From a virus: 64,000 nucleotides of DNA. The translations under genes were made by a program, and so were the position numbers. The notes under the pieces were generated by a model, which saw only the letters and a list, made by a program, of their open reading frames with translations, was not told the DNA's origin and searched no databases. How positions within the stretch are numbered: the stretch's first letter is position 1; the number at the start of each line of letters is the position of its first letter. The stretch covers positions 1 to 64,000 of IMG/VR virus record IMGVR_UViG_3300009171_000001, one strand, 5' to 3'. Below, piece by piece: positions 26,160 to 26,233 of the stretch.

Positions 26160-26233
26160 GTCGAAATACCCGATATAGAATATCGGGTATCTACGGATAA
26201 AAGCGATAATCCGTATCGAAAAGACTAATCGCT
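26160..26233 (+). ncRNA. Hammerhead ribozyme H3 with variant core (UCGAAAA); predicted cleavage after 26191
   Basis: GTC-GAAA-stem III-TC-[TACGGAT/ATCCGTA]-TCGAAAA-GAC; compensatory changes in stem I; pseudoknot retained. Confidence 0.8.

What the first reader, a model, noticed from the sequence alone, without database searches (positions are those of the whole stretch)
26160..26233. Natural hammerhead core variant UCGAAAA
Seen: the CUGAUGA core is replaced by UCGAAAA (C3U, U4C, U7A, G8A), the cleavage triplet is AUC rather than AUA, and stem I has compensatory changes. Established: positions 3 and 8 form a tertiary pair, so U3-A8 preserves it. Inference: an active, possibly rate-tuned variant that consensus searches would miss.
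Basis: partly seen in the sequence, partly recalled or inferred. Interest (0 to 1): 0.7.

Follow-up and report, generated by a model that had tools for sequence, protein, structure and literature searches.

The report
Phage hammerhead ribozyme with triple-variant core
This is a real fourth copy of a self-cutting "hammerhead" RNA between genes of an uncultured freshwater-sediment phage; three of its normally fixed catalytic letters have changed (U3, C4, A8), so it probably cuts more slowly or not at all, and only a bench test can say which.

Summary
Window 26159-26233 (+) is a paralog of three canonical pseudoknotted type II hammerheads in the same complete 73.8-kb phage (H1 23994, H2 24834, H4 28374). 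It keeps stems I, II and III, GAA, A15.1-U16.1, a non-G cleavage base (C17) and the 6-bp loop I/3'-tail pseudoknot. It reads UCGAAAA where the others read CUGAUGA, and stem I carries three fully compensated pair changes.

The same variant sits before the same ATPase gene in a related metagenome phage (L135). More distant relatives, and one close relative seen in a sequencing run, have canonical hammerheads at that site, so the variant is derived.

All four core changes fall on the only tolerant positions: N7, the 3-8 pair and position 4. G5, A6 and A9 are kept (about 1 in 100 by chance). That favours continued selection as a hammerhead. Against this, C4 is reported to lower activity considerably, and U3/C4 create a competing helix with G12/A13.

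The parts are not new. Natural U3-A8 was described in 2011 and U4C in a viroid. This scan has already noted each separately in many other phages. I did not find the combination elsewhere. Whether it cleaves is untested. Interest is modest.

The parts
26159..26162 (+). Stem II, 5' strand (AGUC). A26159 is also the last base of the TAA stop of ORF 25920-26159.
   Evidence: It pairs with GACU at 26223-26226. The paralogs covary here: H4 has UGUC/GACA and H1 has AGUU/GACU.
26163..26165 (+). G12 A13 A14 core strand, unchanged from the consensus.
   Evidence: Invariant in all four copies.
26166..26190 (+). Stem III hairpin: 11 bp with an AGA loop, closed by A15.1-U16.1.
   Evidence: The L135 ortholog has a compensated change in this stem (GAUAU..AUAUC becomes GACA..UGUC).
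26191..26191 (+). C17. The predicted self-cleavage site lies between 26191 and 26192.
   Evidence: Position relative to stems III and I. The paralogs have A17.
26192..26215 (+). Stem I hairpin: 7 bp (UACGGAU/AUCCGUA) and a 10-nt loop that holds AGCGAU (26202-26207).
   Evidence: Three pairs changed on both sides relative to H1, H2 and H4. The fold is shown.
26216..26222 (+). Variant core strand UCGAAAA (U3 C4 G5 A6 A7 A8 A9) in place of CUGAUGA.
   Evidence: It is identical in L135.
26223..26226 (+). Stem II, 3' strand (GACU).
26228..26233 (+). Pseudoknot 3' strand AUCGCU, complementary to loop I AGCGAU.
   Evidence: The 6-bp complement is present in all four copies, with a G-U wobble in H4. 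The duplex energy is -6.3 kcal/mol. This type of contact is described in PMC3088659.
26234..26273 (+). Leader shared by the cassettes (AAAAUAUCUA..AAGGAGAACAAAAAUG), followed by the start codon of the MoxR-like AAA ATPase gene (26271).
26161..26164 (+). UCGA (11.2, 11.1, G12, A13). It can form an alternative 4-bp helix with U3 C4 G5 A6 (26216-26219).
   Evidence: The alternative fold is -22.0 kcal/mol against -22.8 for the hammerhead fold in H3. In H2 the values are -17.2 against -21.4.
23994..24069 (+). H1, a canonical paralog (CUGAUGA, AUA).
24834..24909 (+). H2, a canonical paralog and the closest to H3 in its flanks.
28374..28447 (+). H4, a canonical paralog.

Best explanation
H3 is the fourth member of a family of pseudoknotted type II hammerhead ribozymes. 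These punctuate the early polycistronic transcript of this phage, and each lies directly in front of a shared leader and ribosome-binding site.

Shown: H3 keeps the whole scaffold. It differs in the core only at N7, at the 3-8 pair (now U-A) and at position 4 (C).

Inferred: H3 still folds as a hammerhead and still cleaves between C26191 and U26192, but more slowly than H1, H2 and H4. Two things should slow it. C4 weakens the uridine turn. U3 and C4 also make the core strand Watson-Crick complementary to C11.1-G12-A13, which adds a competing inactive fold. A larger share of transcripts would then keep the upstream 79-codon gene joined to the ATPase and VWA-like genes.
For: **Paralogy and scaffold**
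- Three canonical copies lie in the same operon, and the scaffold is fully kept.

**Pattern of change**
- Divergence is confined to a 32-nt block (26191-26222), with 12 of 32 bases changed. The flanks differ from H2 at only 4 of 83 positions.
- Inside that block all three changed stem I pairs are compensated.
- All four changed core positions are the tolerant ones {3, 4, 7, 8}, while G5, A6 and A9 are kept. By chance that is 1/35. Multiplied by about 1/3 for positions 3 and 8 staying paired, this is roughly 0.01 (my arithmetic).

**Precedent for each change**
- U3-A8 is a documented natural covariation with in vitro activity (PMC3088659).
- U4C keeps a viroid infectious (PMC3088659).
- A 2026 survey uses CYGANGA as the core motif (PMC13481778).
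- I found an independent strong U4C type II hammerhead in a related phage locus (L173 2804-2867, stems of 5, 11 and 7 bp).
- C17 is the commonest cleavage-site base among the relatives' copies.

**Persistence**
- The variant is present unchanged in a second phage with different neighbouring genes and a compensated stem III change (L135).
Against: - No cleavage data exist, and no RNA run holds the phage.
- U4C alone 'considerably decreases' activity.
- In a comprehensive double-mutant scan, only C3G:G8C rescued activity within the CUGA turn. [quoted passage not shown]
- Hammerhead-like RNAs that deviate at more than one core position, including one from a Xanthomonas phage, were inactive in vitro.
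- The alternative helix is nearly isoenergetic with the active fold.
- L135 is 98.5% identical over the adjoining ATPase DNA, so its conservation of the core says little about selection.
- Relatives use canonical cores at this site, so the variant is not needed there.
- The 1-in-100 argument is post hoc and rests on one event.
Confidence: 0.5

Rival explanations
1. H3 is a catalytically dead hammerhead relic. The core has lost its sequence constraint, and the element survives only as a structured spacer and leader (two hairpins, a pseudoknot and a closing helix). It would serve RNA stability, translation or protein binding. The upstream small gene and the ATPase/VWA genes would stay on one transcript.
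For: - The core has diverged as much as the freely covarying stem (4/7 against 6/14). A constrained catalytic core would be expected to stay fixed while the stems covary.
- Three conserved positions deviate at once, and multi-deviation hammerhead-like RNAs were inactive in Perreault et al..
- U3/C4 turn the junction into a regular 4-bp helix stacked on stem I (-22.0 against -22.8 kcal/mol).
- The whole H3-plus-leader stretch weakly resembles a non-ribozyme cis-regulatory motif, freshwater-2 (26.5 bits, E=6.5).
Against: - The substitutions avoid exactly G5, A6 and A9, and positions 3 and 8 stay paired (about 0.01 by chance).
- GAA, A15.1-U16.1, a non-G base at 17 and the pseudoknot are all intact, although recombination among the copies could explain the identical flanks.
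- U3-A8 and C4 each occur in natural hammerheads that are taken to work.
- The freshwater-2 match is far below its gathering score, and most of it is the ribosome-binding site.
Confidence: 0.35
2. H3 is a conditional hammerhead. The variant core changes the metal preference, or the competing UCGA:UCGA helix acts as a switch, so that cleavage before the ATPase operon happens only under particular conditions.
For: - There is a precedent in another phage type II hammerhead. The natural A6C core of Bcep176 cleaves poorly with Mg2+ but well with Mn2+ (PMC7151607).
- Two near-isoenergetic folds are predicted for H3 only.
Against: - No ligand, protein or condition is indicated by the sequence.
- Relatives have ordinary cores at this site.
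- A 0.8 kcal/mol difference is within the error of the energy model, and the pseudoknot is not modelled.
Confidence: 0.12
3. The variant is an assembly or sequencing artefact, produced by mis-joining of the repeated hammerhead-leader cassettes.
For: The cassettes are repeats, and the short contigs of public runs break or jump at them.
Against: - The same block, letter for letter, is found in an independent JGI contig from another sample (L135).
- In the probable source run, one 362-base contig matches 25895-26256, which spans H3, with no differences.
- Three compensated stem pairs cannot arise from mis-joining the other copies.
Confidence: 0.02

Closest known systems
Pseudoknotted type II hammerhead ribozymes clustered between genes of phages and prophages (Perreault et al. 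2011, PMC3088659; Rfam RF02276 Hammerhead_II)
   Same: Same strand order: stem II 5' strand, GAAA, stem III, UH, stem I, core, stem II 3' strand. Stem II is short (4 bp). A 6-bp pseudoknot joins loop I to the 3' tail. Several copies flank single genes in one operon.
   Different: The core reads UCGAAAA instead of CUGANGA. Neither H3 nor its canonical paralogs reach any Rfam hammerhead score. Relatives' copies in L005 score 29-32 bits against a gathering score of 37.
Natural U3-A8 covariants of the hammerhead core (Perreault et al. 2011; in vitro work by Przybilski and Hammann 2007, cited there)
   Same: C3-G8 is replaced by the isosteric U3-A8 pair.
   Different: Here U3-A8 occurs together with C4 in the same core. 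I found no report of that combination and no second example in about 1.9 Mb of fetched phage loci.
Natural U4C hammerheads: the peach latent mosaic viroid variant (Ambros and Flores 1998, as cited in PMC3088659) and the phage example L173 2804-2867 found here
   Same: C at position 4 of the uridine turn in an otherwise intact hammerhead. L173 also has an AUC cleavage triplet.
   Different: Those keep C3-G8. The viroid variant is reported to be much slower in vitro yet viable in vivo.
Bcep176 phage hammerhead with a natural A6C core (PMC7151607)
   Same: A phage intergenic type II hammerhead whose core deviates from the consensus. It shows that such variants can be functional but conditional (it prefers Mn2+).
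   Different: A different position is changed (6, not 3, 4 and 8). That activity was measured; none has been measured here.
Inactive hammerhead-like RNAs with several core deviations (Perreault et al. 2011, Fig. S7, e.g. a Xanthomonas phage)
   Same: Phage context and more than one deviation from the core consensus.
   Different: Their exact changes could not be read because the figures are images. H3's changes are restricted to tolerant positions, and it has canonical paralogs.

Membership tests
Hammerhead ribozyme, type II | Three helices around a junction in the type II order, with stem II open and stems III and I as hairpins | tested here: met
   The descriptor scan gives stems II, III and I of 4, 11 and 7 bp. 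The same fold is the MFE and the centroid.
Hammerhead ribozyme, type II | G12 A13 A14 strand and the A15.1-U16.1 pair | tested here: met
   GAA at 26163-26165 and A26166-U26190.
Hammerhead ribozyme, type II | Cleavage-site nucleotide H17 (not G) between stems III and I | tested here: met
   C26191.
Hammerhead ribozyme, type II | Core strand C3 U4 G5 A6 N7 G8 A9 | tested here: not met
   The strand reads U3 C4 G5 A6 A7 A8 A9. Positions 3 and 8 are compensated as U-A. Position 4 deviates, as in known natural U4C variants.
Hammerhead ribozyme, type II | [quoted passage not shown] | tested here: met
   AGCGAU 26202-26207 pairs with AUCGCU 26228-26233. The pairing is kept in all four copies, with a duplex energy of -6.3 kcal/mol.
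Hammerhead ribozyme, type II | Homology to bona fide (consensus) hammerheads | tested here: met
   Mean column identity of 88% among the four copies. Outside the 32-nt variant block, H3 differs from H2 at 4 of 83 positions.
Hammerhead ribozyme, type II | Reaches the Rfam RF02276 gathering score | tested here: not met
   No hit for H3. The canonical paralogs also get no hit, so this test is uninformative for this sub-family.
Hammerhead ribozyme, type II | Site-specific self-cleavage giving 2',3'-cyclic phosphate and 5'-OH ends | not testable with these tools
   No RNA sequencing run holds the phage. A bench assay is needed.

The most novel reading that the evidence does not exclude
UCGAAAA is a working hammerhead core. 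A triple deviation (U3, C4, A8) would remain catalytically competent in a pseudoknot-stabilised type II scaffold, and its self-complementarity to C11.1-G12-A13 would provide a built-in attenuator or switch. The phage would then process one junction of its early operon (before the ATPase/VWA genes) more slowly or conditionally than the other three. This would widen the accepted hammerhead consensus and give a natural matched set (H2 against H3) for studying core tolerance.
Probability: 0.25. Interest if true: 0.55.

Novelty: new variant of a known kind. Interest (0 to 1): 0.36.

Why it matters
Hammerhead searches and textbook consensus treat CUGANGA as nearly fixed. A natural core that departs at three conserved positions, sits beside three canonical paralogs in one operon, and has changed only where theory says change is tolerable offers a clean test. 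It shows how far a pseudoknot-stabilised hammerhead core can drift and still work. It would also test whether phages use weakened ribozymes to set different processing rates for different genes. If H3 is dead, it instead documents how a ribozyme decays into a plain structured leader. In either case the individual changes are already known, so the gain is incremental.

Tried and rejected
**Expression and related contigs**
- No RNA holder was listed among public runs, so 5' ends at the predicted cut could not be examined. The runs laid were DNA contigs only.
The contigs of the closest ATPase homologs (78-71% identity) could therefore not be fetched.

**Searches for more examples of the variant**
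My descriptor found only chance-level 3-bp 'stems' among the 119 loci it returned.
- A scan for the H3-type stem I with any G5/A6/A9 core gave one unrelated coding stretch.
- Scans for the family's stem III and for its tail in IMG/VR found nothing.
- The single metagenome scan found L135 and two chance matches.
- A literature search for a UCGANAA hammerhead core found nothing relevant.
- Two key primary papers (PMC1986816, PMC147498) are not held. The eLife pairwise data tables are not held either.

**Readings considered and rejected**
- Alternative registers that would place an indel in the core. They break the C11.1-G12 junction or stem I.
- A type I reading that uses the upstream GAC-UAA-GUC mini-hairpin as stem II, prompted by an 18-bit partial hit to RAGATH-1-hammerhead. 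I rejected it because the strand upstream reads CAAAAAA, not a core, and no stem I partner exists.
- The freshwater-2 match (26.5 bits against a gathering score of 49.9) is too weak to use for classification.
- Sigma-70 promoter-like and terminator-like sites are not enriched in 23000-29000. The cassettes are therefore best read as internal to one transcript.

Full report
**What is there**

The window is the first 64 kb of a complete 73,759-bp IMG/VR phage record with direct terminal repeats. Public runs that hold it are freshwater sediment metagenomes.

At 26159-26233 on the + strand lies a compact RNA motif. It sits between the stop codon of a 79-codon ORF (25920-26159) and the start of a MoxR-like AAA ATPase gene (26271), which is followed by a DUF2201 metallopeptidase/VWA-like gene. 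In order, the motif reads:
- AGUC
- GAA
- an 11-bp hairpin closed by A-U
- C
- a 7-bp hairpin
- UCGAAAA
- GACU
- A
- AUCGCU

The last hexamer is complementary to AGCGAU in the loop of the second hairpin.

Three further copies of the same architecture lie in neighbouring intergenic regions: H1 at 23994, H2 at 24834 and H4 at 28374. Each has the textbook CUGAUGA core and an AUA cleavage triplet. Each is followed by the same leader, which ends in AAGGAGAACAAAAAUG.

These are pseudoknotted type II hammerheads of the kind Perreault et al. described in phages and prophages (PMC3088659). Stem II covaries among the copies (AGUC/GACU, UGUC/GACA, AGUU/GACU).

**Check of the observation**

- C3U, U4C, U7A and G8A in the core
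- C17 in place of A17
- three stem I pairs changed on both sides (U-A to C-G, A-U to G-C, G-C to A-U), with no broken pair

A descriptor that leaves the core free (NNGANNA) found H3 as the only non-canonical hit in the window plus nine related loci. RNAfold gives the hammerhead junction as the MFE and centroid fold for H3, just as for H2 and H4.

Rfam reports no hammerhead for H3. It also reports none for the canonical copies. It does see the three shorter hammerheads of relative L005, at 29-32 bits against a gathering score of 37. This sub-family is therefore invisible to the standard model whatever its core.

**History of the variant**

Compared with H2, H3 differs as follows:

| Segment | Differences from H2 |
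|---|---|
| 5' part (stem II 5' strand, GAA, stem III) | 1 of 32 |
| 3' part (stem II 3' strand, tail, leader) | 3 of 51 |
| Block from position 17 to A9 (26191-26222) | 12 of 32 |

The variant is thus a distinct module set in flanks that are homogenised among the copies.

A 3.65-kb JGI metagenome contig (L135) comes from a related phage. It has three canonical copies and one H3-type copy, and the H3-type copy again lies immediately before the ATPase gene. The block is identical letter for letter. Stem III carries a compensated change, and the genes upstream differ: L135 has an extra canonical hammerhead and an extra small gene there. The ATPase DNA next to the element is 98.5% identical, so this shows persistence in a second genome but little evolutionary depth.

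Canonical type II hammerheads occupy the same place in other relatives:
- L005 (= L139), whose ATPase is 69% identical in protein sequence
- L159 and L167
- a closer relative seen in a wetland run, where a short contig joins an H2-type canonical copy and leader directly to the ATPase start

A working hammerhead before this gene is therefore the common state, and UCGAAAA is derived.

**Does it still cleave?**

This cannot be tested here, so the argument is indirect.

In favour of cleavage:
- The four changed core positions are exactly the four that prior knowledge calls tolerant. N7 is free. Positions 3 and 8 form a Watson-Crick pair that covaries to U-A in several natural hammerheads, with published in vitro activity. 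U4C is a natural viroid variant that remains infectious. A recent survey even writes the motif as CYGANGA.
- G5, A6, A9, G12, A13, A14, the 15.1-16.1 pair and a non-G base at 17 are all intact.
- If four of seven positions changed at random, the chance of missing 5, 6 and 9 is 1/35. Keeping 3 and 8 paired adds a factor of about 1/3.
- The three compensated stem I pairs show that the block evolved under structural selection.
- I found one independent, strongly folded U4C hammerhead (CCGAUGA, AUC triplet, stems of 5, 11 and 7 bp) in a related phage locus, L173 2804-2867. It was one of 15 convincing type II hammerheads in 563 kb of relatives, where reversed-sequence controls gave only four weak hits.

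Against cleavage:
- U4C 'considerably decreases activity in vitro'.
- In a complete single and double mutant scan of a type III hammerhead, nothing in the CUGA turn except C3G:G8C retained good activity.
- Hammerhead-like RNAs with more than one core deviation, including one from a phage, were inactive.
- The core has drifted as much as the covarying stem, which is not what a constrained catalytic strand usually does.
- U3 and C4 make the strand UCGA perfectly complementary to U11.2-C11.1-G12-A13. The resulting 4-bp helix stacks on stem I and sequesters G12, A13, G5 and A6. It is within 0.8 kcal/mol of the hammerhead fold in H3 (-22.0 against -22.8). In H2 the equivalent pairing is 4.2 kcal/mol worse and is destabilising. 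The pseudoknot is not in this model.

**Verdict on mechanism**

I put the odds as follows:
- about 0.5 that H3 is an attenuated but still self-cleaving hammerhead
- about 0.35 that it is a dead relic kept as a structured leader
- about 0.12 that it is conditional, through metal preference or fold switching. The Mn2+-preferring A6C core of phage Bcep176 is the precedent.
- about 0.02 that it is an artefact. This is largely excluded by L135 and by a 362-base contig of the probable source run that spans H3 (25895-26256) without differences.

In every reading the consequence is the same in kind. The junction before the ATPase/VWA genes is processed less efficiently than the other three. No promoter-like or terminator-like enrichment interrupts the array, which fits one polycistronic transcript cut by the ribozymes.

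**Comparison with what is known, and novelty**

Already published:
- the element class, its placement between phage genes and its pseudoknot (2011)
- natural U3-A8 (2011)
- U4C (1998)
- a variant phage core with altered behaviour (2020)

Earlier notes of this scan report U3-A8 or U4C hammerheads separately in many other phage genomes. I treated those notes as leads, and confirmed only one U4C case of my own.

The new point is the combination of U3, C4 and A8 in one core. I found no paper that mentions it. I found no second example in the loci I could fetch. I class H3 as a new variant of a known kind, of modest interest.

**Limits**

- There are no RNA data.
- Two primary biochemical papers and the pairwise-mutant tables were not available.
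- What I say about Przybilski and Hammann 2007 and Ambros and Flores 1998 rests on how PMC3088659 cites them.

Noticed in passing
window 23600-23675 and 25815-25870: At these sites tRNA-like mini-structures take the place of a hammerhead in front of the same shared leader. Each has a 7-8-bp closing stem and a GGUUCAAnnCC T-arm-like hairpin. ARAGORN calls no tRNA. L135 has equivalents. They look like alternative RNA-processing signals (RNase P/Z type) within the same cassette system.
   Followed up: partly
window 24004-24022 (H1), 28384-28402 (H4) against 24844-24862 (H2) and 26169-26187 (H3): The inner part of stem III is inverted between copies. GATAATCTATATC in H1 and H4 is the exact reverse complement of GATATAGATTATC in H2, and H3 differs from H2 by one loop base. 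A hairpin flip of this kind suggests template switching or recombination at the palindrome.
   Followed up: no
window 26126-26159; L135 (reverse strand) 2712-3260: Relative to L135, the window lacks about 250 nt at 26126, so its 79-codon ORF is a chimera of two L135 genes. It also lacks a canonical hammerhead plus a small gene just before H3. Contigs of runs X2 and X3 show further joints between cassettes (24933>26258, 26159>28375). The hammerhead-leader repeats appear to act as recombination points that shuffle early genes.
   Followed up: partly
L173 2804-2867 (+), IMGVR_UViG_3300008216_002770: A strongly folded type II hammerhead with a U4C core (CCGAUGA) and an AUC triplet lies between a gene and the DUF2201-like gene of a phage from the same ATPase family. 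It is an independent natural C4 example.
   Followed up: partly
window 26169-26273: A weak full-length match to the Rfam freshwater-2 RNA (RF02980; 26.5 bits against a gathering score of 49.9, E=6.5). The match covers two hairpins and an AAGGAGAAnAcAAAUG leader. That motif may come from related freshwater phage cassettes. This was not tested.
   Followed up: no
L136 2840-2960 and L137 1489-1609: These are canonical type II hammerheads (GUC/GAC stem II, AUC triplet) whose stem III carries an insertion of about 90 nt (14-bp stem, large interior), in the closest IMG/VR relatives (ATPase 72% identical).
   Followed up: no
window 23994-24062, 24834-24902, 28374-28441; L135: Rfam Hammerhead_II and all other hammerhead models give no hit, even at permissive thresholds, for these fully canonical-core ribozymes. 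The likely reasons are A17, the long stem III and the large loop I. This sub-family is a blind spot of the current model.
   Followed up: partly
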